NCBI GenBank assembly: GCA_016432365.1
Contig: CP066686.1
Span: forward strand, 64,355 to 128,354
DNA from: Candidatus Woesebacteria bacterium
GTDB lineage: Bacteria > Patescibacteriota > Microgenomatia > UBA8517
Length of the DNA stretch: 64,000 bases
Direction: 5' to 3'
The notes below the pieces were generated by a model. The model searched no databases. It was not told the origin of the DNA and saw nothing but the letters and a program-made list of their open reading frames with translations. A program made the translations under genes and the position numbers. Every line of letters starts with the position of its first letter. Positions within the stretch are counted from its first letter, which is position 1. Positions 1,106-60,230 of this stretch are shown one piece after another.

Positions 1106-1140
1106 ATGAAGTTCTAAGTCTTACTTGACGCATTCAACAG

Positions 1141-1170
1141 ATACTAGTTGCTAGTTACTAGTATCTAGTT
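1141..1170. repeat. CTAG-rich palindromic intergenic repeat, copy 1 (atactagttgctagttactagtatctagtt)
   Basis: It lies between the exonuclease start and the ftsH stop and shares the actagtatctag core with the other copies. Confidence 0.6.
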
Positions 1171-3451: not shown

Positions 3452-4957
3452 TTAATTTAATTTGTTTTTAATCCCAATTAGTTTATACGCTTCTTCGAGG
3501 GTTGTGTTTGCTATTGTACTCGCCTTTTTGGATCCTTCCAAAAGAATGTTTTTTACAAGTTGCAAGTCGCCTTCGAATTCTTTTCTTCGTGCTCTGGCTT
3601 CTGCAAAATATAATTTATGAGCCTCAACCAATTTCTCTTTAACTTCCACATCTCCAATCTCACCTGCTTTATATTTTGTTTTCATCTCTTCAACCATATC
3701 TTTATTTTGGTTAATTATATCGTGGTACATAAAAACGGTGTTTCCCTCGATCTTCCCGGGATCGGTCGCTCTTTTTCTGTTCGGGTCAGTATACGCGCTC
3801 ATTATTTGTTTTTTTATCACTTCATAGTCATCAAATATTCCAATCACATTTCCCAAACTTTTGCTCATTTTTCGTGTCCCGTCTGTACCAACTATTTTTC
3901 CTGTTTCTTTAGAAATCAGTGGTTCCGGCAAAGGAAATAAGTCATTAGAATATGTCTTATTAAAATTTCCAGCAATATCGCGGGTTAATTCTATATGCTG
4001 TCTTTGATCCTCCCCAACCGGAACTCCATATGGTTTATACAAAAGAATGTCGGCGGCCATCAAAATGGGATAATTAAAAAGGCCCATGTTTATAGATTCA
4101 ACTTCTGCGCCAAATTGAAGTTTGTCTTTAAATGCATGCATTCTCTGCATTTGGCCGAATGAAATATAATTTGCCAAAACCACAGCCAGTTGAGAGTGTG
4201 CAGGAACTTGTGATTGGCGGAAGAAAACACATTTTTCCGGATCAAGTCCCAATGCCAAATAATCCAAGACGACATTCGTAATATTGTCTTCTAGTTTTTC
4301 TCGATCCTTTACAGTTGTTAGAGCATGCAAATCAGCTACAAAATAATAAACTTCCAAATTTCTATTCTGTAACTCGATTTGGGGTTTAACTGCCCCAAAA
4401 TAATTACCAATATGTAAGGCATTACCACTTGGGGTAATACCAGATAAAATTCTTTTATTGTCAGATCTTTCCAAACTATCCAAAGCATCCCCCGCTGTGA
4501 TATCAACGACTACTGAATTGGGAATCTTAGTTAAGTCTGAAGATTTATATTTTGTTGTAACTAATAAACTTCCTGAACCACCATATACATATTCGTTTTC
4601 GAGTACTTGACGATCAATGAAGGTTTTAAATCCGGTCAGGTAATGCGCCGCGCCGGGCTCAAGGCCGGTTAATCGGGAAAACTCCTCTTTGCTGGCAATG
4701 TTTAATTTTTTAACACTCAATAATTTCTTTGTTTTTTCTAAATCTAACCTAGTATCTCCCCTACGAATTAGCGCAACGTAGTCGTCGTCTGCTTTCATTA
4801 AAAGTGTTGCAGAGCTAAGTTTTAGTGGCAACCCTAGGAAATTCATAACATCAGAAACCTCAACAAAAGCCGGGTGTTCAATAAATTCATGAAGGATATT
4901 TAGCTGATCCAACTGTTTACCATATTCTTCGACTGTTTGTTCAACTTTGTTTTTCAT
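3452..4957 (-). CDS. trpS: Tryptophanyl-tRNA synthetase with a ~170-aa N-terminal YbaK/ProX-like (deacylase-type) extension
   Basis: The C-terminal ~330 aa carry the class I motifs HIGN (HIGH), ADLHALT and KMSKS typical of TrpRS. The N-terminal region (LIRRGDTRLDLEKTKKLL...LTGLEPGAAHYLTG...YGGSGS) resembles the YbaK/ProX trans-editing fold. Confidence 0.85.
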   Translation of the reverse strand: MKNKVEQTVEEYGKQLDQLNILHEFIEHPAFVEVSDVMNFLGLPLKLSSATLLMKADDDYVALIRRGDTRLDLEKTKKLLSVKKLNIASKEEFSRLTGLEPGAAHYLTGFKTFIDRQVLENEYVYGGSGSLLVTTKYKSSDLTKIPNSVVVDITAGDALDSLERSDNKRILSGITPSGNALHIGNYFGAVKPQIELQNRNLEVYYFVADLHALTTVKDREKLEDNITNVVLDYLALGLDPEKCVFFRQSQVPAHSQLAVVLANYISFGQMQRMHAFKDKLQFGAEVESINMGLFNYPILMAADILLYKPYGVPVGEDQRQHIELTRDIAGNFNKTYSNDLFPLPEPLISKETGKIVGTDGTRKMSKSLGNVIGIFDDYEVIKKQIMSAYTDPNRKRATDPGKIEGNTVFMYHDIINQNKDMVEEMKTKYKAGEIGDVEVKEKLVEAHKLYFAEARARRKEFEGDLQLVKNILLEGSKKASTIANTTLEEAYKLIGIKNKLN

Positions 4958-8902: not shown

Positions 8903-9766
8903 ATGACACAAGATACGATCAAAAATCTGCTTCCCAAATTCATAGAGTCCCTTAAATCTAAAGGGCGCTCCCCTGCTACCGTGCTTGCCTATAGAAGCGA
9001 CCTTGAACAGCTTACCGGCTATTTGTTAAAAAGAGAAAGAGCTACTCCAGATCAGGTAAAGCCTGAGGATTTAGACTCGTTCCGTGACCAACTTTTGGCT
9101 GACAAGTACACACCCAAATCCGTCAGCCGCAAACTAAATGCCGTAAAAACATTCTTTAGGTGGATGATTACAGAAAATGCTATTAGCTTTGATCCAAGCT
9201 CTTCGGTTGCCCACCCTAAGATTGACAATGCCTTACCCAAATTCCTTTCACAGCTTGAGTATAGGGCCCTTCGCGACGTTGTAAGAAACGATGTTAGAAT
9301 TGCTGCTATTGTCGAACTTATCCTACAAACAGGTCTTAGAATCTCTGAGGTCGCCAATCTTAAACTTGAACGTTCCAAAGATGGTTCGCTTAAGATTGAG
9401 TCTTATGCTACCCAGCCGGAAAGAACAGCTCCTTTGAACAAACCGGCTCAGGAGGTTCTTGATTCTTATATGAAGATAAGACCTAAATCGGATTCTCCCT
9501 ATGTTTTTATCAGCAAAAACGGTAAACCACTGGCAGTAAGAAACATCAGAGCGTCAATTTCCAGATATATGCAAAGGGCAGAACTTCCAAATTATTCTGT
9601 AAATGACTTAAGGACCACGTTTATGGTGGAAAATCTCAAAGCAGGGGTAGATATTGTCCTTCTTTCTCAAGTTTCCGGACACAAACGTCTTTCTACCACA
9701 GAAAGGTATTTGGAACTTGCACAAATAACCGAGCCTGGTAAAAAACAGGTCTTAGTTGAGCTGTAA
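8903..9766 (+). CDS. Tyrosine site-specific recombinase/integrase (XerC/XerD family)
   Basis: It has an N-terminal SAM-like core-binding domain (LAYRSDLEQLTGYL) and a C-terminal catalytic domain with GLRISEVANLKL, the HxxR region and RYLEL (catalytic Tyr). Confidence 0.85.
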   Translation: MTQDTIKNLLPKFIESLKSKGRSPATVLAYRSDLEQLTGYLLKRERATPDQVKPEDLDSFRDQLLADKYTPKSVSRKLNAVKTFFRWMITENAISFDPSSSVAHPKIDNALPKFLSQLEYRALRDVVRNDVRIAAIVELILQTGLRISEVANLKLERSKDGSLKIESYATQPERTAPLNKPAQEVLDSYMKIRPKSDSPYVFISKNGKPLAVRNIRASISRYMQRAELPNYSVNDLRTTFMVENLKAGVDIVLLSQVSGHKRLSTTERYLELAQITEPGKKQVLVEL

Positions 9767-10334
9767 CTGGCCCAATTGGACTAATTAGTCCAAATTTGCC
9801 AAATTTGTTTTCCCTACGCTTCTTATACAGGTTTTCTTTAAATCCCCCTTCTTGAACGAATTTTTGTTCTTTTGCTCTAATAAGTTGGTCCAGTAAATAA
9901 CCCTGTTTCATACATAAACAAATCATTAGATTTGCAAAGTTTTCTGCGTTGTTGTAATCCAAATTGGTCCACTTTGACAAATCAGACAAATTTGTTTCTG
10001 TTCCAATCGTCTCCTTAAAACTTCTGATTTTTAAGACTCTTGGGTCGTTTTTATCCCAAATTGGCAAATGTCTTTGCCTTAAATAATCTTCAAAGTCTTC
10101 TGAAAGTTCAGAATAAGAGGCTCTACTAACACTGGTTAGCATCATTTCCGAGGCCGATGAAATTTCCTTAGATCCCTCAACTATATTTTGTTTACCACTT
10201 CTCCCGGCCTGGACCATTTGTTCAACAGTTCTTTTGAATTTCAAGTCAGACAAGTACCGGTCGCAGAAAACAACAGTGAAGTCGAATATCGTTACAGAAA
10301 GTCTGTAAACAAGAAGGTTTTTGTAGCCACCCAT
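9693..10334 (-). CDS. Four-helix-bundle family-like protein with a ~110-aa C-terminal extension (Avd/23S-IVS protein family?)
   Basis: The N-terminus (YRLSVTIFDFT...FKRTVEQMVQAGRSGKQNIVEG) aligns by eye to the four-helix-bundle protein at 40667..41029 (YKLSLLIYKLT...SQIRRAVISIPSNIAEG). Its 3' end overlaps the recombinase gene convergently. Confidence 0.4.
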   Translation of the reverse strand: MGGYKNLLVYRLSVTIFDFTVVFCDRYLSDLKFKRTVEQMVQAGRSGKQNIVEGSKEISSASEMMLTSVSRASYSELSEDFEDYLRQRHLPIWDKNDPRVLKIRSFKETIGTETNLSDLSKWTNLDYNNAENFANLMICLCMKQGYLLDQLIRAKEQKFVQEGGFKENLYKKRRENKFGKFGLISPIGPVTAQLRPVFYQARLFVQVPNTFLW

Positions 10335-10383: not shown

Positions 10384-10577
10384 TGGTCTCGGATGGAATC
10401 GAACCATCGTGTCGACTTTATGTTAGTAAATTCTGGTGGAGCCGGATGGAGTCGGACCATCGAATCGACTTTATAAGAGTCGTGGCTTACCGTTAACCTA
10501 CGGCTCCCCAGAATTCACTAACAGTCAAGGCAAAGCCTTGTCATAAGAGTCGTGTCCTACCATTGAACGACGAGACC
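10384..10577 (-). tRNA. Interrupted (split/intron-containing) tRNA whose ~120-nt insert carries the complete tRNA above
   Basis: The 5' half is at 10577..~10543 (acceptor GGTCTCG, D-arm GTTCAATGGTAGGAC, anticodon stem CGACU + CUUAU). The 3' half is at ~10420..10384 (AGUCG, T-arm GATGGTTCGATTCCATC, acceptor CGAGACC complementary to the 5' half, discriminator A). The insert has a CAAGGC-TTT-GCCTTG hairpin and 13-bp inverted repeats (TGTTAGTGAATTC / GAATTTACTAACA) flanking the inner tRNA. Confidence 0.5.
10434..10507 (-). tRNA. tRNA with UAU anticodon (tRNA-Ile reading AUA), complete, CCA encoded
   Basis: Minus-strand cloverleaf: acceptor GGAGCCG/CGGCTCC, D-arm GGTTAACGGTAAGCC, anticodon arm CGACU-CUUAUAA-AGUCG, T-arm GATGGTCCGACTCCATC (T-loop TCCGACT, non-canonical at position 55), 3' ACCA. 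Confidence 0.65.
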
Positions 10578-10610
10578 AATGAGGCAATTATACCAAATAT
10601 ACGCGGAGAG

Positions 10611-10637
10611 ACTAGTTACTAGTAGCTAGCGACTAGT
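10611..10637. repeat. CTAG-rich palindromic intergenic repeat, copy 2 (actagttactagtagctagcgactagt)
   Basis: It overlaps the stop of the UGDH-like gene and lies next to the nested tRNA locus. Confidence 0.6.
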
Positions 10638-13857: not shown

Positions 13858-13890
13858 CCTAGATACTAGTATCTAGTTACTAGTATCTGT
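13858..13890. repeat. CTAG-rich palindromic intergenic repeat, copy 3; contains the perfect 18-nt palindrome ctagatactagtatctag
   Basis: It lies between the VirB4-like start and the upstream gene stop, followed by a cgggc-tta-gcccg hairpin. Confidence 0.65.
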
Positions 13891-14626: not shown

Positions 14627-15178
14627 TCATTTTGAAGTTTTCCAAAATTTTTCCTTGACCTTTGCTTTGAAGTTTTCTCTCCTCGCCATCATAAATAAAT
14701 AGTCAGATAGGCGATTTATATACATTATCGCCCCACTAGGTACTCTGTACTCTGTACTCTGTACTACCAAAGCGCGTTCAGCTCGGCGACAAATTGACCG
14801 GGCATAAAAGAGCTGTGAAGCTCGCGGTGTACCGCCGTAAAAAATAAAGTTTTTTTGGACGGGCAATTCCCCTTCCCATTTATCAATCTCTTTTTCCAGT
14901 TTTTTAGTTTTTGTTTTAGAAAATCTGAGGTTTGCCCCGGCAAGTATCGAGTTTATTGTAAATAAATTCCCCTGTATCTCTTCTATCTTTTTAATTCCAC
15001 TACTATCATTCGAATGATAGTAGTGTGATTTAATGACACCTAAAAAAGAATTTAACTCATCAATTGCCCCGATCGCTGCAATCTTGCAAGAATCTTTGCT
15101 GATTCCGATAAGCTGACCAGACTTTTTGTCAAAAACTTTTGTAATTCCTTTATCTCCTGTTTTTGTATAAATTGACAT
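14627..15178 (-). CDS. ATP:cob(I)alamin adenosyltransferase, PduO-type
   Basis: The N-terminal MSIYTKTGDKGIT matches the PduO/MMAB signature (YTxxGDxGxT); length is 183 aa. It sits directly downstream of the B12-dependent RNR. Confidence 0.8.
   Translation of the reverse strand: MSIYTKTGDKGITKVFDKKSGQLIGISKDSCKIAAIGAIDELNSFLGVIKSHYYHSNDSSGIKKIEEIQGNLFTINSILAGANLRFSKTKTKKLEKEIDKWEGELPVQKNFIFYGGTPRASQLFYARSICRRAERALVVQSTEYRVPSGAIMYINRLSDYLFMMARRENFKAKVKEKFWKTSK
14741..14771. repeat. Short tandem heptamer repeat (gtactct)x3 + gtacta
   Basis: A direct tandem array in the intergenic region downstream of the adenosyltransferase gene. Confidence 0.5.
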
Positions 15179-19844: not shown

Positions 19845-20387
19845 TTACTGGGCATTGGTGGTTGTTGGGTTGTTTGTATTTATTTGGCATTCTTTAAAAG
19901 ACTGGTCAATTGCCTGGATTATCATTTCGATTCTTTTACCCGATTCCTCGAGTGAAATCGCGTTTTTTTCGTTTGGAAACCAATGAAAAACCAGATTTCG
20001 CGACTGCTTCCATGTTTCCCAAAGCAATTCAGCCAAATCCGCCCCCCCACAATACTTCACTATCTTATCGTAAACTCCGTTGCGTCTAAATTCTCTGGGT
20101 AAAGAAGGATTCAAGGCCTTCCCGATCCTGAAATGTTTTCCGTAATAATCGATGTCTGTAATAAAACCAAGATCCAAAAAAAGTTTCTTTAAAAAACCTT
20201 CGTAAGCTTTGGCTGCCGGAAACACAACAAATGAATAATCGTCAAATTCCCTCTTTCCTCCAGGGAGGTCTGCCCCCCAGCTTTTTACCGTAGCATAAAT
20301 GAATTCCGACTCTTTAAGAAGTTTTTGAAGATCCTCCTCAAGATAACTCCACCATATTTTTGCCGATAGTTGCTCCAATGTTTCCAT
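19845..20387 (-). CDS. Hypothetical protein (180 aa)
   Basis: An ORF with no confident motif assignment. Confidence 0.4.
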   Translation of the reverse strand: METLEQLSAKIWWSYLEEDLQKLLKESEFIYATVKSWGADLPGGKREFDDYSFVVFPAAKAYEGFLKKLFLDLGFITDIDYYGKHFRIGKALNPSLPREFRRNGVYDKIVKYCGGADLAELLWETWKQSRNLVFHWFPNEKNAISLEESGKRIEMIIQAIDQSFKECQINTNNPTTTNAQ

Positions 20388-22679: not shown

Positions 22680-25124
22680 ATGGCGAAACGGCCTAATGTT
22701 AAACCCAATGAGAAATCTGCCCAAAATATCAGCTTGACTCCCGTTCAGACACTTGGGGGTCTTTTAGCTCTGGTCGGGAAACCGTTCTATTTGATCCTTT
22801 CACACCTGGTACTTGGGATAATATTTATCTTGCTTGCCATTGGAAAAACCACAAGACTCCTAGTTGCTGCCGTAACCCGACATTTTAAGTGGCTATTCAC
22901 CACAATAATACAAAGAAAAAAGGAAAATAAAAAACAAAAAGCAGCAAAAAAACTAAGAACAAACAAGCGTGTCAATCAACTGAAATTTCAACTCCCGAAT
23001 TTCAAACTCTTTTTCAAACTTGAGAAACTCCGGGTGAACCTCTTTGAATTAAAAATACTTTTTAATTTTAAAAGAAATATCGCCAAGATTGGGGACTCCA
23101 TCAGAAAGTTCAGGTCAAAGTTCAAATCCAAGCTTTTTATCGTTATCAGCGTTCTAATATTTTTACTTTTTAATTTTTACTTTTTAATTTTCAAAGACCT
23201 CCCCTCCCCAAAAGATCTCGATACCAGAGAGCCTGAAGTCTCAACTAAAATTTATGACAGAAACGGCAATTTGCTTTACAAAATTTATAAAGATAAAAAC
23301 CGGACAATTGTCCCTCTAACCCAAATTCCCCAACAAGTACGTCTTGCCACCCTCGCTGCAGAAGACGCCGAATTTTATTCTCACCCTGGTTTTTCCATTA
23401 AGGGGATTTTCAGGGCGGTGATTACAGACATCCGCAGCGGATCATTGCAGGGCGGTTCAACCATCACACAACAACTTGTAAAAAATACACTTCTTTCCCC
23501 TGAAAAAACAATACTTAGAAAAATAAAGGAAATTATATTATCAGTCGAGGTGGAGTATTTGTACACAAAAGATCAGATTTTAGAAATGTATCTTAATGAA
23601 GTTAGCTACGGCGGCACCGCTTACGGAATTCAAGAGGCCAGTCTTTCTTATTTTGGAAAAGACGCCAGAGATCTAACTCTTGCCGAAGCGGCTCTACTCG
23701 CCGGACTGCCAAAAAGTCCGACACTATATTCACCATTCGGACAAAATCCCGACCTTGCCTTTGAAAGACAAAAAGAAGTCCTCCACCTGATGGTAGTAAA
23801 TAAATTCATCACAAAAAGCCAGGAAACTGAAGCTGTGAATCAAAAGCTAAGATTCCTACCTAAAAAAACTGAGATTAAAGCCCCACATTTTGTTATGTAT
23901 GTTAGACAAATGTTGGTGGATAAATATGGCGAAGATATGGTAGAAAAAGGCGGACTTGAGGTAACAACTTCGCTGGACCTTAACATTCAGAACTTAGCAG
24001 AGAAAATCGTATCACAAGAAGTTGATAGAATTAAAAATCTTCATGTAGGCAACGGTGCCGCTTTAGTCGTAAACCCCCAAACAGGAGAGATTCTAAGCAT
24101 GGTAGGCTCCAAAAATTATTTTGATACTGCCGGTGACGGTAATGTAAATGTCCTGACAAGACTCAGACAACCCGGAAGTTCAATAAAGGTTGTTAATTAC
24201 GCTTATGCCCTAGGTAACGGTTTTACTCCGGCGACAATCATAAACGATTCGCCGATCATATATTCTACCCCCGGTTCACCACCCTACTCTCCACAAAATT
24301 ATGATGGGAAATTTATAGGGAATGTATCTCTCAGAAACGCATTGGCACAATCGAGAAATATTCCGGCAGTCAAAGTTCTGGTTAGTTATGGAGTACCAAA
24401 AATGATCGAGCAAGGTCGTAAGATGGGTATAACTTCATGGGATGATCCTTCAAAATATGGTCTTTCATTAACCTTGGGAGGAGGCGCTGTTAAAGCAATC
24501 GAACTGGTAAGAGTCTACGGTGTTTTGGCTAATTACGGCAAACGAATGGACTTAATACCAATTTTAAGCGTCAAAGATTATAAGGGTAGAATTTTAGAAA
24601 AGAATACCCCAAACGGAGAGCAAGTTCTTGATCCAAGAATTGCATTTTCTCTGACAGATATTTTAAAGGACAATCCGGCAAGAGCTCCTGAATTTGGATT
24701 AAATTCATATCTGGTTATTAAAAACCATCCCGAAGTAGCGGTAAAAACAGGAACAAGCAATGATTTAAGGGATAACTGGGCGGTGGGTTACAATCAAAAT
24801 TTTTTGGTATTAACTTGGGTCGGAAATAATGACAATTCACCAATGAGCCATGTTGCATCAGGTGTTACCGGTGCGTCACCTATTTGGAATAAAATAATAT
24901 CGGCATTACTCACCGATCAATTGTCGATTGATTGGAAAGCACCGGAGGGTGTAAGTAAAATTAATATTTGCACACTCACAGGCAATCTTCCCTGTAATGG
25001 TTGCCCGACGCGACAAGAGTGGTTCTTGGACGAAAAAAAACCAACCCATCGTATTTGTGCCACACCAATACCAGTTATTCAAGAAGGAAATATACTAAAT
25101 TCAGGGTCTTCAACAAGAAATTAA
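22680..25124 (+). CDS. Second class A penicillin-binding protein (PBP1A paralog) with a long Lys-rich N-terminal region
   Basis: It has GT51 motifs (EDAEFYSHPGFS, GGSTITQQLVKN) and TPase motifs (SSIKV, KTGTSND); length is 814 aa. It lies in tandem with the preceding PBP. Confidence 0.9.
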   Translation: MAKRPNVKPNEKSAQNISLTPVQTLGGLLALVGKPFYLILSHLVLGIIFILLAIGKTTRLLVAAVTRHFKWLFTTIIQRKKENKKQKAAKKLRTNKRVNQLKFQLPNFKLFFKLEKLRVNLFELKILFNFKRNIAKIGDSIRKFRSKFKSKLFIVISVLIFLLFNFYFLIFKDLPSPKDLDTREPEVSTKIYDRNGNLLYKIYKDKNRTIVPLTQIPQQVRLATLAAEDAEFYSHPGFSIKGIFRAVITDIRSGSLQGGSTITQQLVKNTLLSPEKTILRKIKEIILSVEVEYLYTKDQILEMYLNEVSYGGTAYGIQEASLSYFGKDARDLTLAEAALLAGLPKSPTLYSPFGQNPDLAFERQKEVLHLMVVNKFITKSQETEAVNQKLRFLPKKTEIKAPHFVMYVRQMLVDKYGEDMVEKGGLEVTTSLDLNIQNLAEKIVSQEVDRIKNLHVGNGAALVVNPQTGEILSMVGSKNYFDTAGDGNVNVLTRLRQPGSSIKVVNYAYALGNGFTPATIINDSPIIYSTPGSPPYSPQNYDGKFIGNVSLRNALAQSRNIPAVKVLVSYGVPKMIEQGRKMGITSWDDPSKYGLSLTLGGGAVKAIELVRVYGVLANYGKRMDLIPILSVKDYKGRILEKNTPNGEQVLDPRIAFSLTDILKDNPARAPEFGLNSYLVIKNHPEVAVKTGTSNDLRDNWAVGYNQNFLVLTWVGNNDNSPMSHVASGVTGASPIWNKIISALLTDQLSIDWKAPEGVSKINICTLTGNLPCNGCPTRQEWFLDEKKPTHRICATPIPVIQEGNILNSGSSTRN

Positions 25125-32547: not shown

Positions 32548-32578
32548 CTAGAAGCTAGATACTAGTTGCTAGCTTCTT
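32548..32578. repeat. CTAG-rich palindromic intergenic repeat, copy 4 (agaagctagatactagttgctagcttct; 9-bp stem)
   Basis: It lies between the tkt-N start and the LOG gene stop. Coordinates are ±1. Confidence 0.6.
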
Positions 32579-40158: not shown

Positions 40159-40641
40159 TTAATTGTTTTCCTCCAGTCTCGTTATCTCTTCAAGCCGTTC
40201 CTCATACCGTTCTTTTCCGGAGAACTTTGTTTCGAGAAATGCAATGAGCATCGCTTTTGCCTCTTTTTCGGTAGTGTAGTCGGCCGCCAAAACCAAGACA
40301 TTCATGTCATCGTCGTTTCGACCGGCCTTAATCTGGCCGACAGATTTTCCGATTGCCGCCCTAACACCGTCAAATTTATTGGCAACAACTTCTATCCCCA
40401 CTCCACTACCGCAAATCAAAATACCACGGACCTTATCTTTTCGATCATACGCCGCGCCTAAATAGTAAGACCCGACGACAGAACCAACTTTTTCTGCATA
40501 TTTTGTATAATCATCCGTAGGGTCTAGTTTGTCTGCGCCCACATCCTCAAATTCATATCCCATCTGAAAAAGCCATCTGGCAACTTTTTCTTTAAGTTCA
40601 AAACCTCTATGATCCGCGCCCAGGTAAATTACATCTTTCAT
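40159..40641 (-). CDS. rpiB: Ribose-5-phosphate isomerase B (RpiB/LacAB family)
   Basis: It has GADHRGFELKEKV and the catalytic-Cys region ILICGSGVGIEVVANKF; length is 160 aa. Confidence 0.85.
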   Translation of the reverse strand: MKDVIYLGADHRGFELKEKVARWLFQMGYEFEDVGADKLDPTDDYTKYAEKVGSVVGSYYLGAAYDRKDKVRGILICGSGVGIEVVANKFDGVRAAIGKSVGQIKAGRNDDDMNVLVLAADYTTEKEAKAMLIAFLETKFSGKERYEERLEEITRLEENN

Positions 40642-40650
40642 AATTAGAGA

Positions 40651-40679
40651 AACTAGTCGCTAGTAGCTAGATACTAGTT
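40651..40679. repeat. CTAG-rich palindromic intergenic repeat, copy 5 (aactagtcgctagtagctagatactagtt)
   Basis: It lies between the rpiB start and the four-helix-bundle gene stop. Confidence 0.6.
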
Positions 40680-41029
40680 TTTATTTTAGAAATTAAAGAG
40701 TTTAACATTTTCATTACCTCTTCCAGTAACAAATTCGCCTCTTCAAAGTCTCTATTAGAAATATACCCCAAATCTCTCGCAATTAATAGTTGTGTCTCAA
40801 GCTCGGCTCCGGAGGCGAAAGATATTTGCAAGAATTGAATGTACTCCAATTTTCTTTGTCTACAATATCCCTCTGCAATATTTGAAGGAATTGAAATAAC
40901 AGCTCTCCTAATTTGAGAGGTAAGACCATACAACTCTTCCCTCGGAAAACGCCCCGTAAGCTTGTAAATTAGAAGCGAGAGTTTGTAGGATTTTTGCCAA
41001 ACTATTAATTCCTTGTATGTTTTAGTCAT
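40667..41029 (-). CDS. Four-helix-bundle protein (TIGR02436; 23S rRNA intervening-sequence protein family)
   Basis: It has the canonical YKLSLLIYKLTGRFPREELYGLTSQIRRAVISIPSNIAEG signature. It sits between tpiA and rpiB, flanked on both sides by CTAG-rich palindromic repeats. Confidence 0.8.
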   Translation of the reverse strand: MTKTYKELIVWQKSYKLSLLIYKLTGRFPREELYGLTSQIRRAVISIPSNIAEGYCRQRKLEYIQFLQISFASGAELETQLLIARDLGYISNRDFEEANLLLEEVMKMLNSLISKIKTSI

Positions 41030-41060
41030 CCTAGTATCTAACTTCTAGTAACTAGTTACT
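41030..41060. repeat. CTAG-rich palindromic intergenic repeat, copy 6 (cctagtatctaacttctagtaactagttact)
   Basis: It lies between the four-helix-bundle gene start and the tpiA stop. Confidence 0.6.
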
Positions 41061-41062
41061 TA

Positions 41063-41722
41063 TCACTTAAACCCTTCCGTAAGTTCTGTCAATTCTTTTC
41101 TCGGGTCTTCCGCTTTAACAATATCTGTAGCTACCGCAAAACCGGTTGCCCCGAGACTTAGACTTTTTCTTATATCTTCCGATGAGTGGATTCCGGCTCC
41201 CACAACAAGTGGAATATCGAATCCATTCGCAATTTCTGCGGCTAACGAAATTATTTCCGGTTTAGCCTGTGCTACTGACGTCGTAGTTGAACCGACAAGC
41301 TCGGCCGGCTCATAGGCCACATAGGTTGGAGCAAGGTCGCAAACCTTTCTAAGTTCGGGGGTGTCTGTTGCAAAAATCAAGGTCTTTAAATTTGCATTCA
41401 TTGCTTTTTCGTTTGCGGTATAAAGATTGTCGAAATTATTAAACTTATGTTCAGAGTGGTTCAGAAAAACTCCGGAAACTCCGATTCTTGCAACTTCTTC
41501 GGGCAATGTCCAACCTGTATGTGCACCGTAACTGATGGGGTCTATGTGCTGGACCCAAATTTCTAAAGTAGTAGAAGTAATAATCGCCTCAGCGTCAATC
41601 ACCTGAACAACGGGGATAATTTTTATCTGCGACTGCCTTGCCACCTCTTCCAAAATTTTAGTTAAATTAACAGCGTTTATTCCACTCCCCTGTTCATAGG
41701 TTTTGTAATTAACAAATATCAT
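41063..41722 (-). CDS. tpiA: Triosephosphate isomerase, short archaeal-type (219 aa)
   Basis: It has NHSEH (catalytic His), VAYEPAELVGS (catalytic Glu region) and GAGI motifs; the length is typical of archaeal-type TIM. Confidence 0.7.
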   Translation of the reverse strand: MIFVNYKTYEQGSGINAVNLTKILEEVARQSQIKIIPVVQVIDAEAIITSTTLEIWVQHIDPISYGAHTGWTLPEEVARIGVSGVFLNHSEHKFNNFDNLYTANEKAMNANLKTLIFATDTPELRKVCDLAPTYVAYEPAELVGSTTTSVAQAKPEIISLAAEIANGFDIPLVVGAGIHSSEDIRKSLSLGATGFAVATDIVKAEDPRKELTELTEGFK

Positions 41723-42031: not shown

Positions 42032-42516
42032 TTGAAGGATCCTTCAAGAACACTCTCTTCCTGCTTTTGATCAAACGTTTTTTCCAGTGTTACCACAATC
42101 TCTTTATAATTCGAATAGTTTTTGGCCGAAGAAAAGTCGATGAGGTATCCGCCTTTAGCTAAATTAAGTTTGCCCAAAGAAATAAATGTTGTTCCATTAC
42201 CCATCCAAGCCTGATAAAAGTAACCTGTCGTAGGTTCTGGTAAATCCGCAAGGACTGTGAGTTCAAATTTGCTATTTTCAAAAACTCGTATTGCTTCGCC
42301 AATCCCCCCACTCTCCATAACAGACACAAGATCAGCCCTGTCTGCATTAGATGGAATTGTTATACCGCCGAATTTTTCAGTTATTCTTTGGAAAATTGAT
42401 GGGGTGGAAGACGGAAGGTTTAAAACATCATTCTTTTTAGAATTTTTGAAAAGAAGAACGCCCGTAATTAATACTACCAAAACTAAAAAACCAACTATTA
42501 TGTCCCTTGTTTTCAT
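42028..42516 (-). CDS. Hypothetical membrane-anchored protein
   Basis: It has an N-terminal TM helix (IIVGFLVLVVLITGVLLF); length is 162 aa. Confidence 0.4.
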   Translation of the reverse strand: MKTRDIIVGFLVLVVLITGVLLFKNSKKNDVLNLPSSTPSIFQRITEKFGGITIPSNADRADLVSVMESGGIGEAIRVFENSKFELTVLADLPEPTTGYFYQAWMGNGTTFISLGKLNLAKGGYLIDFSSAKNYSNYKEIVVTLEKTFDQKQEESVLEGSFN

Positions 42517-42560
42517 TGGTGGCTAAAAATAGCACCCTACTACAGGTTTGTCAAGGCCCC

Positions 42561-42590
42561 CTAGTATCTAATATCTAATCACTAGTATCT
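42561..42590. repeat. CTAG-rich palindromic intergenic repeat, copy 7 (ctagtatctaatatctaatcactagtatct)
   Basis: It lies between two minus-strand membrane-protein genes. Confidence 0.55.
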
Positions 42591-42632
42591 TTCTCTTATT
42601 CCCGCATATTTACCGCATAAATTCCGCAAGCC

Positions 42633-43238
42633 TCAACCCAGCCTATCTTTAATCTCATCATGGTTTGTAAACTCGGTAAAAAGCACCGATCCAACAAGTC
42701 CGTGAATAAGCATTTGTGGCAAAATATTTCCCCAAATTAAATAAATCCAGTTGTTTATTACTCCAAAAACAGCCAGTAGAATCCAAAATCTTTTAATTGA
42801 TGACCACCCGGTCAAATGAAAAATCATAAAAAATAAAAATGAGGCTAAAAATACAAAATTAATGTTTTGGAACAAGTAGTAAATGGTATCGGTAAAAACC
42901 CAAAGGAAAAATATTTGCTGCAATCCCCCAAACAAAATGTAAGGCAAAATAAGCCTCCTCAACCTACGGATTCTTTTTCTGAAATTCTTTGCAGAGATTC
43001 CGAAAAATAGAAAAACAATTGCCGGTCCACTAATCAACAGGAACGAAGGAAAAATTGTCTCCTTATTATACCCACCCAAAAACGGATAATCTTTTAAAAT
43101 TGATAGCCTCAAAAATAAGGCCCCAAATCCAAAAACAAACATTAATATTCCCCAAAAACCATTAAATCTGGTTGTTTTAAAATAGACCGGAATAATAATG
43201 AGGGAAAGAATCAGAATTATTATTAAAGGGTTGACCAC
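42633..43238 (-). CDS. Hypothetical integral membrane protein
   Basis: The 201-aa ORF is highly hydrophobic. Confidence 0.4.
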   Translation of the reverse strand: MVNPLIIILILSLIIIPVYFKTTRFNGFWGILMFVFGFGALFLRLSILKDYPFLGGYNKETIFPSFLLISGPAIVFLFFGISAKNFRKRIRRLRRLILPYILFGGLQQIFFLWVFTDTIYYLFQNINFVFLASFLFFMIFHLTGWSSIKRFWILLAVFGVINNWIYLIWGNILPQMLIHGLVGSVLFTEFTNHDEIKDRLG

Positions 43239-43759: not shown

Positions 43760-44286
43760 AAAGACTGGCCACTCCGATAACTTTCATTTTGATCGGAGCA
43801 GTTGCCCGGATAATTCCTCACGTTCCAAATTTTGCTCCAATTGGGGCAATGGCTCTTTTTGGCGGAGCTTATATGAATAAAAAACAAGCCTTTCTCTTGC
43901 CGGTTCTGGCTATGATTTTGTCTGATTTCATTGTTGGGTTTGATAGTCTTCCCATGCGACTAACTGTTTACGGAACATTTTTAATGATGGTTGTAGTTGG
44001 AATTTGGCTCAAGAAAAATCTTAGTCTAAAAAATGTATTTATCTCAAGTCTTTTCGCATCTGTTTTGTTTTTTATGACAACAAATTTTTCTGTTTGGATT
44101 TTTGGCTCAATGTACCCGCACAACATCGGCGGTTTGGGTGAGAGTTATTTCTTTGCTATTCCCTTTTTCCGAAATACACTGCTTGGAGATCTGTTTTACT
44201 CAGGAGCTTTCTTTGGTGGGTACGAATTAGTTCGAAGTTTGTTAAGGCGTGATTCCCGTTCCAAAATTTTTAATTTTAAATTCTAA
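43738..44286 (+). CDS. Integral membrane protein, ECF-transporter S-component-like
   Basis: The 182-aa ORF has ~5-6 TM helices and starts inside the end of the upstream gene. Confidence 0.4.
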   Translation: MENHNILKRLATPITFILIGAVARIIPHVPNFAPIGAMALFGGAYMNKKQAFLLPVLAMILSDFIVGFDSLPMRLTVYGTFLMMVVVGIWLKKNLSLKNVFISSLFASVLFFMTTNFSVWIFGSMYPHNIGGLGESYFFAIPFFRNTLLGDLFYSGAFFGGYELVRSLLRRDSRSKIFNFKF

Positions 44287-44299
44287 ATTTTAAATTATC

Positions 44300-44917
44300 T
44301 TAGTACCGCTCCCCTCTTGGTTTTGGTATAAACGGTCTAATCCCATCCATCTCTTTAGGTTTTTGTTTGTATGTAAAGAGAATTTTGTCGATATAGTTAC
44401 CCAAATCACGATAATAATAAACATCGTTTAACAAAATGTCATCTGCTGTAACATCTCCGTGTCCAAAATCATCCGGTCTGGCCGGAGTTCTGGCATGAAC
44501 AACTACGTTCCCAATCGCCAGTTGTTTCCAAATCATATTGGGAGGGTAGGTTTTAACTTTAACCACTTCGTCCCAGGTAAGAGTTCTGGAATTTGTAGCA
44601 AAAAGAGTTGTGGGGTCAAAGCGTACCAGTCTGCGGTCGGTAATATAGGCGATATCACGTTTCTGATAATCGGTCGTAATCTTAGTCCCAATGGTTATTA
44701 TTAAAAGAGCCAGGGCCATCCCCCCAACATAGAAGAAAGAGGACATAACGCTAACCTGACTTCCAAGAATCACCAAAACAAAAAGAATAGCAAGCGAAAT
44801 CAGATAAATTCTGACAAGGGCCACTGTGGTTGCAAGTGGGTGTGGGCGCACTACGTAGAGAATCTTCTCGTCTTCCTGCCGACCAAAAAAGTCGGTATCG
44901 GAATTTTGCATTGTCAT
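44300..44917 (-). CDS. Membrane protein with a bacterial PH domain (DUF304/YdbS-YdbT-like)
   Basis: It has two TM helices followed by a PH-like domain (YITDRRLVRF...). Confidence 0.5.
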   Translation of the reverse strand: MTMQNSDTDFFGRQEDEKILYVVRPHPLATTVALVRIYLISLAILFVLVILGSQVSVMSSFFYVGGMALALLIITIGTKITTDYQKRDIAYITDRRLVRFDPTTLFATNSRTLTWDEVVKVKTYPPNMIWKQLAIGNVVVHARTPARPDDFGHGDVTADDILLNDVYYYRDLGNYIDKILFTYKQKPKEMDGIRPFIPKPRGERY

Positions 44918-48109: not shown

Positions 48110-48217
48110 ATGAATAGCTAAGAGCTGAAAGCGAAGAGCTAAGAACTTTAGCTTCAGTATTATACCCCTGGGCCTGTAGTCTTGACAAGCGGGAGAAGAA
48201 AAAAGTAAATTGATCTC

Positions 48218-53069: not shown

Positions 53070-53333
53070 AATTCTACTGTTACAATCAAACCTATAGGTT
53101 TGACATTCGCCTTCACTTGATATAAAATCTCCCGGCAAATTAACCCTCCCTGGTTATTTGGACTTTTTGTTCTTTAACAAAATCTACAGACACCACATCC
53201 ATGAATTGAGTTCCAAACTGTGGTGTATGCTCAAGAAATCACTTAGTCCAACTTTTCAATAAAAAGAAGTGATTTCTTTATCTGTTTAATTGACCAAAAA
53301 CCAGGCCTACTTTTCATTCAAAGGAGAAAGAAA

Positions 53334-55223: not shown

Positions 55224-55309
55224 GTTCTAGGATAGATTTGAAGTAAGTTATGCCGGTACGGTTAACGTTGACACAAAGTCAGCAACAACCGTACCGGCAA
55301 TTTTTTTGG

Positions 55310-56101
55310 TTATTCTCGCCTTCCGTTAGCAAAACTTTCACTGGCCTCATCGTAAAATCTCTGAATAAGATACCTCAACTGAACCAGATTTAAGTAAGCA
55401 ATCCTGTCGGATGGATTGGCAATTTTTCCACGGCCATCTGCGCTGTCTCCAATTTTGTTTAACTCTGCGTCCGCAATTGCATTAGTTACCAGATCAGAAT
55501 ACCCCTTTTGATCAGCCACGTTTTGTTTTTCATCTATTTCCGAAAGAGCATTAATAACTTTTAGCAAAAAACTCCTATAAGCCAGTTCGTTTGAAGGGTT
55601 ACCTGCGGGATCAAAAAGAATTATGCTAAGCCTCTGACTTTCCGATTGCGGAATTATCAAACTGTATGACTCCGACTCCCCGCTTCCCCAATTTATCTGC
55701 TTTTCAAGAATTGCCTTTAGTAAATCGAGTTCTTCAACCTCAATAATCTCTATTTCTCCACTGGTATTTACACAAGCCAACGAAAGCACATCCTCACTAA
55801 ATTGATTACCGTTATCCCGATTGTCTATAGGCCTCGACATTTCAGTAAAATCGAAAGCTACCGGAGTGAATGAAAGCTCCTCAGTCGTTAAAGTCAAGGG
55901 TTGCGGGTCTACCCCTCTTTCCATTTCCCCCGCATTTGAAGTTAGTAGTCTCCTATTTGTGACCACGGTAGGATACCCGGCTTCGTCCCATCCAAAATGA
56001 AGAATTTGACCACGACCTCCCCTTCCAGCTACCTGGACAAGACCGAAAACATAATTTAGTTGTCTATTAGGCTGCCTAGTCTCAATTTCAATGTTTGCCA
56101 T
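55310..56101 (-). CDS. Hypothetical protein (263 aa), last gene of the minus-strand island operon
   Basis: An unassigned ORF with moderate GC and no SD. Confidence 0.4.
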   Translation of the reverse strand: MANIEIETRQPNRQLNYVFGLVQVAGRGGRGQILHFGWDEAGYPTVVTNRRLLTSNAGEMERGVDPQPLTLTTEELSFTPVAFDFTEMSRPIDNRDNGNQFSEDVLSLACVNTSGEIEIIEVEELDLLKAILEKQINWGSGESESYSLIIPQSESQRLSIILFDPAGNPSNELAYRSFLLKVINALSEIDEKQNVADQKGYSDLVTNAIADAELNKIGDSADGRGKIANPSDRIAYLNLVQLRYLIQRFYDEASESFANGRRE

Positions 56102-56183
56102 ATTTATTTTCTAAAAATATTTAAATGTAAATCCTGTTGCCGGGTAGTTTATATAAACCTATCCGGCAACAGAGTGTAACTTA

Positions 56184-57715: not shown

Positions 57716-57732
57716 TTTTTTCTCCTTGTGAA

Positions 57733-59621: not shown

Positions 59622-59630
59622 TTTTCCTCC

Positions 59631-60215: not shown

Positions 60216-60230
60216 ATTCTCCTCGCTTTT

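What the first reader, a model, noticed from the sequence alone, without database searches (positions are those of the whole stretch)
13858..13890. Dispersed family of CTAG-rich palindromic intergenic repeats (core TAGATACTAGTATCTA)
At least seven copies (about 1141, 10611, 13858, 32548, 40651, 41030 and 42561) occupy the very short gaps between consecutive minus-strand genes and often include the upstream gene's TAG stop. They are built from ACTAGT/CTAG units that form perfect or near-perfect palindromes; 13859..13876 is an 18-nt perfect palindrome. CTAG is normally avoided in bacterial genomes, so its concentration in a repeated intergenic element is striking. Possible roles are intra-operon terminator or attenuator hairpins, RNase processing sites, REP-like elements, a protein binding site, or insertion footprints. 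Two copies bracket the free-standing four-helix-bundle gene at 40667..41029, as if that gene were a mobile cassette.
Basis: seen in the sequence. Interest (0 to 1): 0.6.

Follow-up and report, generated by a model that had tools for sequence, protein, structure and literature searches.

The report
CTAG-heptamer arms of mobile IVP cassette
The CTAG-rich palindromes are real: they are about 30-base repeats that form the two inverted ends of a small mobile gene cassette, of the kind previously described inside ribosomal RNA genes but here sitting between ordinary metabolic genes of an uncultured CPR bacterium, plus five extra copies with no gene inside.

Summary
Seven sites each consist of exactly four YTAR units (mostly CTAG) at a strict 7-nt period, with 0.01 expected by chance. 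All seven fit one oriented 30-nt consensus, AGAnACTAGTnnCTAGnnnCTAGnnnCTAG.

The window comes from a Candidatus Woesebacteria (CPR) genome. Sites 6 and 5 are the inverted arms of a cassette carrying a 23S_rRNA_IVP/S23p four-helix-bundle gene, inserted between tpiA and rpiB. The arms can pair over about 25-30 bp (-37 kcal/mol).

This matches the published Coxiella 23S rRNA intervening sequence: an S23p ORF, tandem heptamers just before the ATG, and a 28-bp stem cut by RNase III. Here the element lies in an mRNA operon instead.

Relatives show mobility:
- Most have an empty tpiA-rpiB junction.
- IVP cassettes with heptamer arms occupy at least 8 different junctions.
- In one relative the cassette is 99.5% identical while the flanking genes are about 84% identical.

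Five sites are solo arms, and four of them fold into 9-11 bp hairpins. RNase III processing and the role of the solo copies are inferred, not shown. This is a new variant of a known kind.

The parts
41031..41060 (-). Site 6: 5' arm of the IVP cassette. Four heptamers (CTAG, CTAG, TTAG, CTAG on the coding strand) plus the outer flank AGTAA. It ends 1 nt before the IVP ATG.
   Evidence: It pairs with site 5 at -37.4 kcal/mol, z -6.7, with 25/30 identity to the reverse complement of site 5. It is identical in L127 and L226.
40667..41029 (-). IVP/S23p gene, a 120-aa four-helix-bundle protein.
   Evidence: PF05635 at E 1.1e-38, and bAvd-like at 1.9e-9. The closest solved structure is 2GSC, deposited with 5 chains, at E 1.5e-22. 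The last codons (..K-T-S-I-stop) are encoded by the first units of the 3' arm.
40648..40677 (+). Site 5: 3' arm of the IVP cassette, with the consensus reading on the + strand. It overlaps the IVP stop codon and ends 11 nt before the rpiB ATG.
40643..41080 (-). The whole cassette as a transferred unit: the block of near-identity to relative L226.
   Evidence: There are 2 mismatches in 438 nt, against a mismatch roughly every 8 nt (about 84% identity) in flanking tpiA and rpiB.
13859..13888 (-). Site 3, the reported locus: a solo arm in 5'-arm orientation. It contains the stop of the 115-aa ORF and ends 9 nt before the ATG of the 777-aa T4SS coupling-protein-like gene.
   Evidence: It forms an 11-bp hairpin at -13.3 kcal/mol, z -3.0. 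A variant is present in the 97% relative L121 and the array is absent in the 86-89% relatives L123-L126.
1139..1168 (+). Site 1: a solo arm in 3'-arm orientation, 3 nt after the ftsH stop. It lies 56 nt upstream of the ATG (1087) of the 5'-3' exonuclease gene, which has its own -10 box.
   Evidence: The hairpin is -13.1 kcal/mol, z -4.6. It is absent at this junction in L121-L126.
10607..10636 (+). Site 2: a solo arm in 3'-arm orientation that contains the stop of the UDP-glucose dehydrogenase-like ORF. A TATAAT box and tRNA-Ile(UAU) follow it.
   Evidence: The hairpin is -11.0 kcal/mol, z -3.6. L121 carries a degenerate CTAA version.
32548..32572 (.). Site 4: a solo array that contains the stop of the LOG-family gene and ends 7 nt before the ATG of the transketolase N subunit. 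Its orientation is ambiguous.
   Evidence: With its flanks it forms a hairpin of -10.9 kcal/mol, z -2.0.
42561..42590 (-). Site 7: a solo arm in 5'-arm orientation (CTAG, TTAG, TTAG, CTAG), directly upstream of a sigma-70-like promoter.
   Evidence: Self-folding is weak. It is identical in L226.
42526..42554 (-). Promoter-like site (TTGACA, 17 nt, TATTTT, with TG) between site 7 and the RskA_C-like gene.
   Evidence: (10 of 12 matches).
9693..10334 (-). A second, distant IVP-like ORF. In relative L121 its ortholog has its own flanking inverted repeats of a different repeat family; in the window that signal is weak (score 19 against 47) and the C-terminus is extended.
   Evidence: There is a weak PF05635 match to residues 7-79, E 7.6e-4, below Pfam's cut-off. 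The L121 ortholog has the highest flank inverted-repeat score of 775 genes, at 47.

Best explanation
The CTAG-heptamer arrays are the terminal inverted repeats ('arms') of a small selfish cassette of the intervening-sequence (IVS) type, together with ORF-less single-arm copies of the same roughly 30-nt repeat.

The full element lies at about 41080-40643 on the minus strand. It consists of a left arm of four YTAG-N3 heptamers, a 363-nt gene for an IVP/S23p four-helix-bundle protein, and a right arm in inverted orientation. It sits in the spacer between tpiA and rpiB of a glycolysis/pentose-phosphate operon.

Shown here:
- The arms are inverted repeats that can form a 25-30 bp duplex enclosing the ORF.
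- IVP genes in this lineage and in other phyla carry such heptamer arms far more often than other genes do.
- The cassette occupies different junctions in different genomes, and most relatives have empty sites.
- The cassette, including both arms, is nearly identical between two genomes whose flanking genes differ by about 16%. It has therefore been exchanged recently as a unit.
- TAG recurs every 7 nt, so every reading frame on both strands hits a stop. This explains why the repeat can sit directly on gene ends (4 of 7 upstream ORFs terminate inside it).

Inferred by analogy with the experimentally studied Coxiella and Leptospira 23S rRNA IVS:
- In the transcript the two arms pair and the stem is cut by RNase III. 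This would release the IVP message and separate the neighbouring cistrons.
- The five solo arms are relics or landing pads of the same element. Four of them fold with their flanks into 9-11 bp hairpins, so at most they act as REP-like intercistronic hairpins.

How the cassette moves is unknown. Candidates are recombination between arrays, a trans-acting enzyme, or a role for the IVP pentamer itself.
For: Arm pairing:
- The sense-strand duplex is -37.4 kcal/mol, z -6.7.
- The arms share 25/30 identity, with mismatches that include 2 sense G-U pairs.

Specificity:
- Of 12 IVP genes among 775 genes in Microgenomates loci, 11 score at or above 26 for flank inverted repeats. That is above the 99th percentile (25.4) of non-IVP genes.
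- Ten of 14 cassettes have arm duplexes of -25 to -46 kcal/mol.

Mobility:
- tpiA-rpiB is an overlapping or near-abutting junction in most of about 70 relatives.
- IVP cassettes lie in at least 8 different junctions of the conserved gene neighbourhood, and a ninth follows a glycosyltransferase gene.
- An IVP 84% identical to the window's lies between tktN and tktC.
- The block 41080-40643 has 2 mismatches in 438 nt against L226, while the flanks are about 83-85% identical. L127 gives the same picture.
- Solo arrays are present, variant or absent among 86-97% relatives.

Generality: IVP genes on cyanobacterial and Azospirillum plasmids are also flanked by heptamer arrays, mostly inverted. Examples are Nostoc punctiforme CAGGAGT/ACTCCTG at -60 kcal/mol and Geminocystis GGGAAAA/TTTTCCC at -49.5 kcal/mol.

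Published precedent (PMC4990558): the Coxiella IVS is an S23p ORF with three tandem heptamers plus one degenerate copy (GACAGAT) directly before the ATG. Copy number varies among strains, the terminal repeats form a 28-bp stem, and RNase III cuts at the first repeat.

Solo sites 1-4 fold at -10.9 to -13.3 kcal/mol, z -2.0 to -4.6.
Against: - No RNA data exist for this organism, so RNase III cleavage is purely analogical. RNase III was not looked for in this genome.
- The excess of sense-strand G-U over antisense-type mismatches is not significant (22 against 13). A purely DNA-level terminal repeat therefore fits equally well.
- No transposase, RAYT or target-site duplication was found.
- Solo hairpins of 9-11 bp are short for RNase III.
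- Sites 6 and 7 barely fold on their own.
- CTAG-heptamer arrays are widespread in many phyla and in phage contigs without any IVP gene nearby: 2 of 120 genome loci and 0 of 48 viral loci have one. Arrays may therefore arise independently, for example by heptanucleotide slippage, with IVP cassettes merely associating with them.
- The near-identical block could be an ordinary recombination tract, although both of its ends fall within 11-25 nt of the arms.
- Only 64 kb of the genome was seen.
Confidence: 0.62

Rival explanations
1. The arrays are ordinary heptanucleotide simple-sequence repeats. Replication slippage generated them, they decayed by point mutation, and they are tolerated between genes only because they carry stops in all frames. 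They have no function and no intrinsic link to the IVP gene.
For: - Heptamer arrays, including perfect CTAG-N3 microsatellites of up to 16 or more units, occur in many phyla and in phages.
- Unit number differs between the window and the 97% relative at site 3.
- Heptanucleotide repeats are reported as the most abundant long SSR class in bacteria, as reviewed in PMC4679880.
- Period 7 is enriched generally in these genomes.
Against: - All seven window arrays have exactly four units, and no 2- or 3-unit arrays occur elsewhere. That is not a slippage-type length distribution.
- The spacers differ while CTAG and the flank AGAnA/ACTAGT are conserved.
- Arrays flank IVP genes in inverted orientation far above background.
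- Sites 5, 6 and 7 are 100% conserved where neighbouring DNA is partly 15% diverged.
Confidence: 0.13
2. The arrays act in translation. They provide a frame-independent stop for the upstream gene and also serve as an SD-less initiation or re-initiation platform, or as the binding site of a post-transcriptional regulator, for the downstream gene. This was proposed for the TAACTGA heptamer repeats of Beggiatoaceae.
For: - Four arrays end 1-11 nt before the next ATG, and none of the downstream genes has a Shine-Dalgarno sequence.
- Four upstream ORFs stop inside the array.
- On the coding strand TAG is kept in 28 of 28 units. The three variant units are TTAG on the coding strand and CTAA on the + strand.
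- In a relative without the array, the same junction carries GGAGG and an overlapping stop/start.
- The TAACTGA repeats share position, lack of SD and three-frame stops (PMC4679880).
Against: - Most genes in this genome lack an SD anyway and look leaderless, with a -10 box 6-8 nt before the ATG. Lack of an SD is therefore not specific to array-preceded genes.
- Three arrays lie 44-104 nt from the next gene and are followed by promoters or a tRNA.
- Across related loci, three-frame stops are not clearly biased to the sense strand (20 of 28 against 17 of 28).
- This reading does not explain the inverted pairing around IVP.
Confidence: 0.13
3. The arrays are DNA operators for a repressor or nucleoid protein that recognises CTAG half-sites, in the manner of TrpR or ribbon-helix-helix proteins. 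Alternatively they are binding sites for the IVP pentamer itself.
For: - They have CTAG palindromic cores.
- The 1st and 4th units lie 21 bp apart, on the same face of the helix.
- Three sites sit just upstream of promoter-like sequences.
- IVP relatives (Avd) bind nucleic acid, and the solved homologues 2GSC and 2RLD were each deposited with five chains. PMC4990558 describes the homologue as a homopentameric toroid.
Against: - A 7-bp period is unlike known CTAG operators. TrpR sites are spaced by 8 bp (from memory).
- Most sites overlap stop codons inside an operon rather than promoters.
- Sites are gained and lost between close relatives, which is unlike a regulon.
- No candidate regulator lies next to any site.
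Confidence: 0.07
4. They are REP/BIME-type elements mobilised by a RAYT (IS200/IS605-like) transposase, or MITEs of a conventional transposon.
For: - They are short imperfect palindromes.
- They lie in intergenic spacers within operons at gene ends.
- Multiple copies occur (7 in 43 kb), with two orientations.
Against: - There is no conserved GTAG head.
- There is no Y1 transposase or any other transposase in the window.
- No target-site duplication is recognisable.
- The only gene ever enclosed is IVP.
Confidence: 0.05

Closest known systems
23S rRNA intervening sequences carrying an S23p/IVP ORF (Coxiella burnetii, Leptospira; PMC4990558)
   Same: - Both encode a PF05635 four-helix-bundle protein.
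- Both have tandem heptameric repeats, about 4 units, immediately upstream of the ATG, with copy number varying among close strains.
- Both have terminal inverted repeats able to form a 25-30 bp stem around the ORF.
- Neither has a usable Shine-Dalgarno sequence.
- Both are regarded as selfish or mobile.
   Different: - This element lies between two protein-coding genes (tpiA and rpiB), not in helix 9, 25 or 45 of 23S rRNA.
- The heptamer is YTAG-N3, giving stops in all frames and a palindromic core, rather than GACAGAT.
- Extra ORF-less single arms are dispersed in the genome.
- RNase III cleavage is shown for Coxiella and is untested here.
Intergenic TAACTGA heptamer direct repeats of marine Beggiatoaceae, cyanobacteria and Bacteroidetes (MacGregor 2015, PMC4679880)
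   Same: - Both are arrays of 2-6 heptamers just upstream of start codons.
- In both, a Shine-Dalgarno sequence is usually absent.
- Both give stops in all three frames and often overlap the upstream stop codon.
- Both have a patchy phylogenetic distribution and unknown function.
   Different: - TAACTGA repeats are exact direct repeats of one unit. Here only CTAG and its phase are kept.
- No link to IVP genes or to inverted pairing was reported for TAACTGA.
REP/BIME elements of enterobacteria and pseudomonads
   Same: - Both are imperfect palindromes of about 30 nt.
- Both occur in intercistronic spacers at the 3' ends of genes.
- Both occur in either orientation, with many copies.
- Both plausibly form mRNA hairpins.
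   Different: - There is no GTAG head and no RAYT gene here.
- These are built from phased heptamers.
- Two of them bracket a gene.
Cyanobacterial STRR and other heptanucleotide long SSRs (Mrazek et al. 2007, as summarised in PMC4679880; STRR from memory)
   Same: - Both are tandem heptamers that are mostly intergenic.
- In both, the unit is lineage-specific.
- IVP genes on Nostoc, Geminocystis and Picosynechococcus plasmids are flanked by such arrays.
   Different: - The window arrays are short (always four units) and not exact repeats.
- To my knowledge, no link between STRR and IVP cassettes has been described.
HutP binding site (UAG-N4)x3 of Bacillus hut mRNA (recalled from memory, not tested)
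   Same: UAG triplets occur at a 7-nt period on the transcript.
   Different: - No HutP-family gene was seen in the window.
- There are four units, not 3+3.
- The core is palindromic, and the arms are inverted around a gene.

Membership tests
IVS-type S23p/IVP cassette (as in Coxiella/Leptospira 23S rRNA) | Encodes a PF05635 (23S_rRNA_IVP / S23p) four-helix-bundle protein | tested here: met
   PF05635 at E 1.1e-38, 132 bits against a cut-off of 33.8. PDB 2GSC matches at E 1.5e-22.
IVS-type S23p/IVP cassette (as in Coxiella/Leptospira 23S rRNA) | Terminal inverted repeats able to form a stem of about 20-28 bp enclosing the ORF | tested here: met
   The arm duplex is -37.4 kcal/mol, z -6.7. The inverted-repeat alignment is 25/30. 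The score is above the 99th percentile of 763 non-IVP genes.
IVS-type S23p/IVP cassette (as in Coxiella/Leptospira 23S rRNA) | [quoted passage not shown] | tested here: met
   Four heptamers end 1 nt before the ATG. Homologous cassettes have 3-9 units. Coxiella has 2-3 units plus one degenerate copy (PMC4990558).
IVS-type S23p/IVP cassette (as in Coxiella/Leptospira 23S rRNA) | Inserted in a helix of the 23S (or 16S) rRNA gene | tested here: not met
   The element lies between tpiA (41063-41722) and rpiB (40159-40641). Rfam finds only four tRNAs and no rRNA in the window.
IVS-type S23p/IVP cassette (as in Coxiella/Leptospira 23S rRNA) | Excised from the primary transcript by RNase III | not testable with these tools
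   This needs RNA-end mapping or an in vitro cleavage assay.
REP/BIME elements | Imperfect palindrome of 20-40 nt in intergenic spacers, many copies | tested here: met
   There are seven copies in 43 kb. Hairpins of 9-11 bp form for sites 1-4.
REP/BIME elements | Conserved GTAG head and a cognate RAYT (Y1 transposase) gene | tested here: not met
   The consensus is AGAnACTAGT.... No Y1 or other transposase is among the roughly 60 window proteins scanned. The rest of the genome was not seen.
MITE | Terminal inverted repeats plus a target-site duplication, derived from an autonomous transposon | tested here: inconclusive
   Inverted arms are present. No direct duplication is recognisable at the cassette or solo sites. 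No transposase is known.
Heptanucleotide SSR (STRR / TAACTGA type) | Head-to-tail exact or near-exact copies of one 7-nt unit, with slippage-type length variation | tested here: not met
   The period is exactly 7, but 3 of 7 positions vary freely and every array has four units. One case of unit-number change was seen in L121.
Intrinsic terminator / attenuator | G+C-rich hairpin followed by a U-tract on the transcribed strand | tested here: not met
   The stems are A+U-rich. No T-run follows them on the minus strand. No terminator was called at sites 5-7.

The most novel reading that the evidence does not exclude
IVP/S23p genes with heptamer-array arms may form a widespread, so far unrecognised class of mobile intercistronic cassettes. 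On this reading they are not a peculiarity of rRNA genes, and rRNA intervening sequences are just the best-tolerated insertion sites.

The toroidal IVP pentamer would recognise, or help propagate, the phased heptamers. The enigmatic heptanucleotide arrays of bacteria (STRR, TAACTGA, CTAG-N3) would then be, at least in part, solo arms or landing pads of such cassettes.

In leaderless-mRNA organisms such as this CPR bacterium, RNase III cleavage in the arms could also create the 5' ends from which the neighbouring cistrons are translated.
Probability: 0.25. Interest if true: 0.85.

Novelty: new variant of a known kind. Interest (0 to 1): 0.62.

Why it matters
The PF05635/S23p family is large and has no known function. 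rRNA intervening sequences have been unexplained 'selfish' elements for more than 30 years, and the abundance of heptanucleotide repeats in bacteria has no accepted explanation.

This locus ties the three together in one compact, comparative case. The same ORF-plus-heptamer-stem architecture known from Coxiella 23S rRNA is found between metabolic genes, moves between junctions and between genomes, and leaves or uses solo arms.

That makes concrete experiments possible:
- RNase III cleavage of the arms.
- Binding of IVP to phased heptamers.
- Recombination between arrays.

It also matters for annotation. In CPR genomes these 25-nt arrays define gene ends, supplying stops in all six frames, and they mark recombination-prone junctions.

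Tried and rejected
- **Phage or synthetic 'six-frame stop linker' origin.** Rejected. The window is a Woesebacteria chromosome with conserved synteny in many metagenomes.
- **Known RNA family.** The Rfam gathering scan finds only tRNAs.
- **IVP next to CTAG arrays in general.** My iterated IVP HMM finds IVP in only 2 of 120 array-bearing loci from other phyla and in 0 of 48 viral loci. Arrays are therefore not generally IVP-linked. The link runs the other way: IVP genes nearly always have arrays.
- **IVP relatives in viral contigs.** None were found.
- **G-U wobble bias, to separate an RNA stem from a DNA repeat.** The count is 22 against 13, which is not significant. The sense duplex is more stable than the antisense duplex in 9 of 14 cassettes, which is only suggestive.
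- **Sense-strand bias of three-frame stops.** It is not significant.
- **Promoter inside the array for leaderless downstream genes.** TAG-N3-T hexamers fit a -10 box at sites 3 and 5 but not at sites 4 and 6. This is left open.
- **UDP-glucose dehydrogenase ORF truncated by the array.** Rejected. The short form is conserved in relatives without the array.
- **Heptamer array inserted in the cobalamin adenosyltransferase-like ORF.** Rejected as an insertion. The protein alignment has no gap there.
- **Leads from memory that were not tested.** These are the IS5/IS630 YTAR/CTAG target preference, the TrpR operator, and HutP.
- **Literature search.** No paper in the searchable library links IVP genes outside rRNA to heptamer arms. 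The library is incomplete.
Full report
**1. The observation**

The reported locus reads CTAGATACTAGTATCTAGTTACTAG on the + strand at 13859-13883.

Looking at CTAG alone shows the real rule. Each of the seven sites has four tetramers at an exact 7-nt period. The sites start at 1144, 10612, 13859, 32548, 40653, 41031 and 42561. Almost all CTAG pairs closer than 30 nt in the window are 7, 14 or 21 nt apart.

The relaxed pattern YTAR-N3 x4 gives 8 overlapping matches against 0.01 expected. There are no 2- or 3-unit arrays anywhere else in the window. CTAG is depleted in the window as a whole (82 against about 132 expected), yet 25 of the 82 copies lie in these 175 bases.

The three variant units are all CTAA on the + strand, which is TTAG on the coding (minus) strand. 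TAG is therefore kept in 28 of 28 units on the coding strand.

Oriented and aligned, the seven sites share more than the phase. The consensus is AGAnACTAGTnnCTAGnnnCTAGnnnCTAG. Sites 1, 2 and 5 read this way on the + strand. Sites 3, 6 and 7 read this way on the minus strand (alignment A1).

**2. Setting**

The window is chromosomal DNA of a Candidatus Woesebacteria bacterium (Microgenomates, CPR). The 777-aa protein next to site 3 is 100% identical to a protein that NCBI names from such a MAG, on a 1.08-Mb contig.

The genes around the sites are housekeeping genes: ftsH, a 5'-3' exonuclease, a split transketolase, rpe, GAPDH, PGK, rpiB and tpiA.

All sites lie between co-directional minus-strand genes.
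- Four upstream ORFs stop on a TAG inside the array.
- Two more upstream ORFs stop 3-7 nt before the array.
- Four downstream ATGs lie 1-11 nt after the array.
- The other three sites are followed by a promoter-like sequence or a tRNA.

Because TAG recurs every 7 nt and CTAG is its own complement, each array carries stops in all six frames.

Most genes of this genome have no Shine-Dalgarno sequence. They show a -10 box 6-8 nt before the ATG, which suggests leaderless mRNAs.

**3. The key: the gene between sites 6 and 5**

ORF 40667-41029 is a 23S_rRNA_IVP/S23p four-helix-bundle protein. It matches PF05635 at E 1e-38, and the closest solved structure is 2GSC, deposited with five chains.

- Site 6 ends 1 nt before its ATG.
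- Site 5 begins in its last codons.
- The two arms are inverted repeats, with 25/30 identity after reverse-complementing one.
- As RNA they form a duplex of -37.4 kcal/mol, z -6.7 against shuffles.

The same holds for IVP homologues in related metagenomic loci, although the heptamer unit differs by lineage. Units seen include CTAG-N3, TAGGCA/TGCCTA, GATTAAG/CTTAATC, GTCTACA, GGTAG-type/CTAC-type and GTAAG/CTTAC.

As a control I scored 5'-flank against 3'-flank inverted similarity for 775 genes in these loci. Of the 12 IVP genes, 11 scored at or above 26, which is above the 99th percentile (25.4) of the other 763. The few high-scoring non-IVP genes were mostly neighbours that share an IVP arm, plus a distant IVP-like gene.

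**4. Mobility**

- In most of about 70 relatives, the tpiA stop codon overlaps or lies within a few bases of the rpiB ATG, so the site is empty. A few carry a solo array or a small hairpin there.
- IVP cassettes occupy at least 8 different junctions of the conserved gene neighbourhood in different lineages: RskA-like to tpiA, tpiA to rpiB, PGK to GAPDH, GAPDH to rpe, tktN to tktC, after tktC, before the aldolase gene, and between the aldolase and PfkB-kinase genes. One more follows a glycosyltransferase gene.
- An IVP 84% identical to the window's lies between tktN and tktC.
- Against relative L226 (and L127), tpiA and rpiB are about 83-85% identical in DNA. The block 41080-40643, which is the two arms plus the ORF, has 2 mismatches in 438 nt. 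Divergence resumes 25 nt outside one arm and 11 nt outside the other. The cassette, arms included, has therefore been exchanged recently as a unit.
- The solo sites turn over quickly. Site 3 has a 5-unit variant in the 97% relative and is absent in the 86-89% relatives, where the two genes abut and an SD is present. Site 1 is absent in all relatives examined. Site 2 is degenerate in the 97% relative.

**5. Link to what is known**

Warrier et al. 2016 (PMC4990558) describe the Coxiella burnetii 23S rRNA intervening sequence.
- It is a 428-nt selfish element encoding S23p, the same family.
- Three tandem heptamers (GACAGAT), plus a degenerate fourth, lie directly upstream of the S23p ATG.
- Their number varies among strains, and the 5' cut falls at the first repeat.

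That is the architecture found here, except that the element is not in rRNA. Rfam finds no rRNA in the window.

IVP genes on plasmids of Nostoc, Geminocystis, Picosynechococcus, Stanieria and Azospirillum are likewise flanked by heptamer arrays, mostly inverted. Two of them sit inside CRISPR-cas operons. Heptamer arms therefore look like a general property of this cassette.

I found no paper in the searchable library that describes this outside rRNA.

The nearest described dispersed repeats are the unexplained TAACTGA heptamers of Beggiatoaceae. They share position, lack of SD and three-frame stops (PMC4679880).

**6. The five solo sites**

They share the oriented consensus of the cassette arms.
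- Sites 3 and 7 have the orientation of a 5' arm.
- Sites 1 and 2 have the orientation of a 3' arm and sit directly on the end of the upstream gene.
- Sites 1-4 fold, with a few flanking bases, into 9-11 bp hairpins of -10.9 to -13.3 kcal/mol, z -2.0 to -4.6.
- The cassette arms, sites 5 and 6, fold less well on their own (-10.4 and -6.7 kcal/mol), and solo site 7 barely folds at all (-5.1 kcal/mol).

A second Woesebacteria lineage (L211) has five such arrays in 6.4 kb, partly at other junctions.

I read the solo sites as ORF-less relics or landing pads of the cassette family. This is inference. CTAG-heptamer arrays also occur widely in other phyla and in phage contigs with no IVP gene nearby, often as perfect microsatellites or as inverted pairs. 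Arrays may therefore arise independently, and the cassette may simply use them.

**7. Mechanism and rivals**

Shown:
- A phased, oriented repeat family.
- Its inverted pairing around IVP.
- Its specificity to IVP genes.
- Its mobility.
- Its frame-independent stop function.

Inferred:
- RNase III processing of the arm duplex, by analogy with rRNA intervening sequences.
- A REP-like hairpin role or relic status for the solo arms.

Not resolved:
- How the cassette moves. No transposase or RAYT gene is present, only a XerC/D-like recombinase at 8903-9766.
- Whether the repeat acts as RNA or as DNA. The G-U bias of 22 against 13 is not significant.

The rivals (pure slippage SSRs, translational platforms, DNA operators, REP/RAYT elements, terminators) are weighed in the structured fields. 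None explains the IVP association or the transferred block. The translational reading is not exclusive of the main one.

**8. Verdict**

This is a real and non-random feature. It is best described as an IVS-type IVP cassette with CTAG-heptamer arms in an mRNA operon, plus solo arms. It is a new variant of a known kind, with a plausible wider significance that needs a genome-scale census and RNA data.

Noticed in passing
window 1-52000 (gene starts listed): Most genes lack a Shine-Dalgarno sequence. Instead they have a TAnAAT-like -10 box 6-8 nt before the ATG, for example at 4957, 35066, 35770, 46850 and 44917. The 5'-3' exonuclease gene keeps this layout in four relatives. This suggests leaderless mRNAs dominate in this CPR lineage.
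   Followed up: partly
window 53000-61000: This stretch has higher G+C (45-50% against about 41%). Its genes are preceded by strong AAGGAGG Shine-Dalgarno sites, unlike the rest of the window. Nearly all of them lack Pfam hits, apart from a ThiF-family protein within the stretch and a radical-SAM protein just downstream at 62205-63296. It may be a horizontally acquired island.
   Followed up: partly
window 9693-10334 (-) and L121 13474-14022: This is a second, distant IVP-like gene, with the motif ..QMVQAGRSGKQNIVEG.. and a weak PF05635 hit. In L121 it is bracketed by the strongest flank inverted repeat of 775 genes, from a different repeat family (CCAATT/TAATTAG). In the window its stop is lost and the ORF is 31 aa longer.
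   Followed up: partly
window 10434-10600 and 8903-9766: A tRNA-Ile with anticodon UAU is preceded by a fragment resembling the 5' half of a tRNA. A XerC/D-like tyrosine recombinase gene lies nearby. Gene content in this region differs between close relatives.
   Followed up: no
window 14734-14768 (inside ORF 14627-15178): A period-7 repeat (AGTACAG x3-4, ending in CTAG) lies inside the cobalamin adenosyltransferase-like gene. It encodes VVQSTEYRVPS with no length change relative to homologues. Similar AGTACAR or AGTTAAA arrays occur in another conserved coding context in several relatives.
   Followed up: partly
window 19845-20387 (-): A HEPN/RNase LS-like ORF of 180 aa is flanked by an inverted repeat (TATATAATATACAGTAAGTATA... 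/ its complement). Its score of 32 places it in the top 1% of genes.
   Followed up: no
window 44262-44300, 48112-48144, 23157-23195: Other period-7 arrays with different units are present. An AATT-type array sits at the convergent junction 44286/44300, an AGC-type array lies near the EF-P gene start, and a TTTT-type array lies inside the second PBP gene.
   Followed up: no
window 42494-42913 against L226: A second high-identity tract (92-98% against about 83%) covers the end of the Rce1-like gene, site 7 and the promoter, and ends close to site 7. Recombination breakpoints may coincide with the arrays.
   Followed up: partly
L219 (Pseudanabaena plasmid), L224 (Picosynechococcus plasmid): IVP genes are inserted inside CRISPR-cas operons, between cas6 and cas4 and between cas10 and cmr3. 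Both are flanked by heptamer arrays: AAAAGCT x12 upstream and AAAAGCC repeats downstream in L219, and GGAGATA/TATCTCC in L224.
   Followed up: partly
L035, L064, L072, L074, L077, L086, L111, L117 (genome-contig loci): In Acidobacteriota, Planctomycetota and other phyla, CTAG-N3 arrays often come as inverted pairs (purine-rich spacers, then pyrimidine-rich spacers) 13-80 nt apart, frequently just upstream of an ATG. They look like ORF-less hairpin versions of the same design.
   Followed up: no
window 3452-4957 (-): A class I Trp/Tyr-type aminoacyl-tRNA synthetase carries an N-terminal aminoacyl-tRNA editing (tRNA_edit) domain, which is an unusual fusion. The next gene encodes a stand-alone tRNA-binding domain.
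   Followed up: no
L121 7995-8086; L167 8734-8843: Intergenic inverted pairs of other heptamer families (CTCAAAT/ATTTGAG and CCAATTN/NAATTGG types) lie between the ribonucleotide reductase and adenosyltransferase genes and elsewhere in relatives. Heptamer-built hairpins are therefore a general feature of this clade.
   Followed up: no
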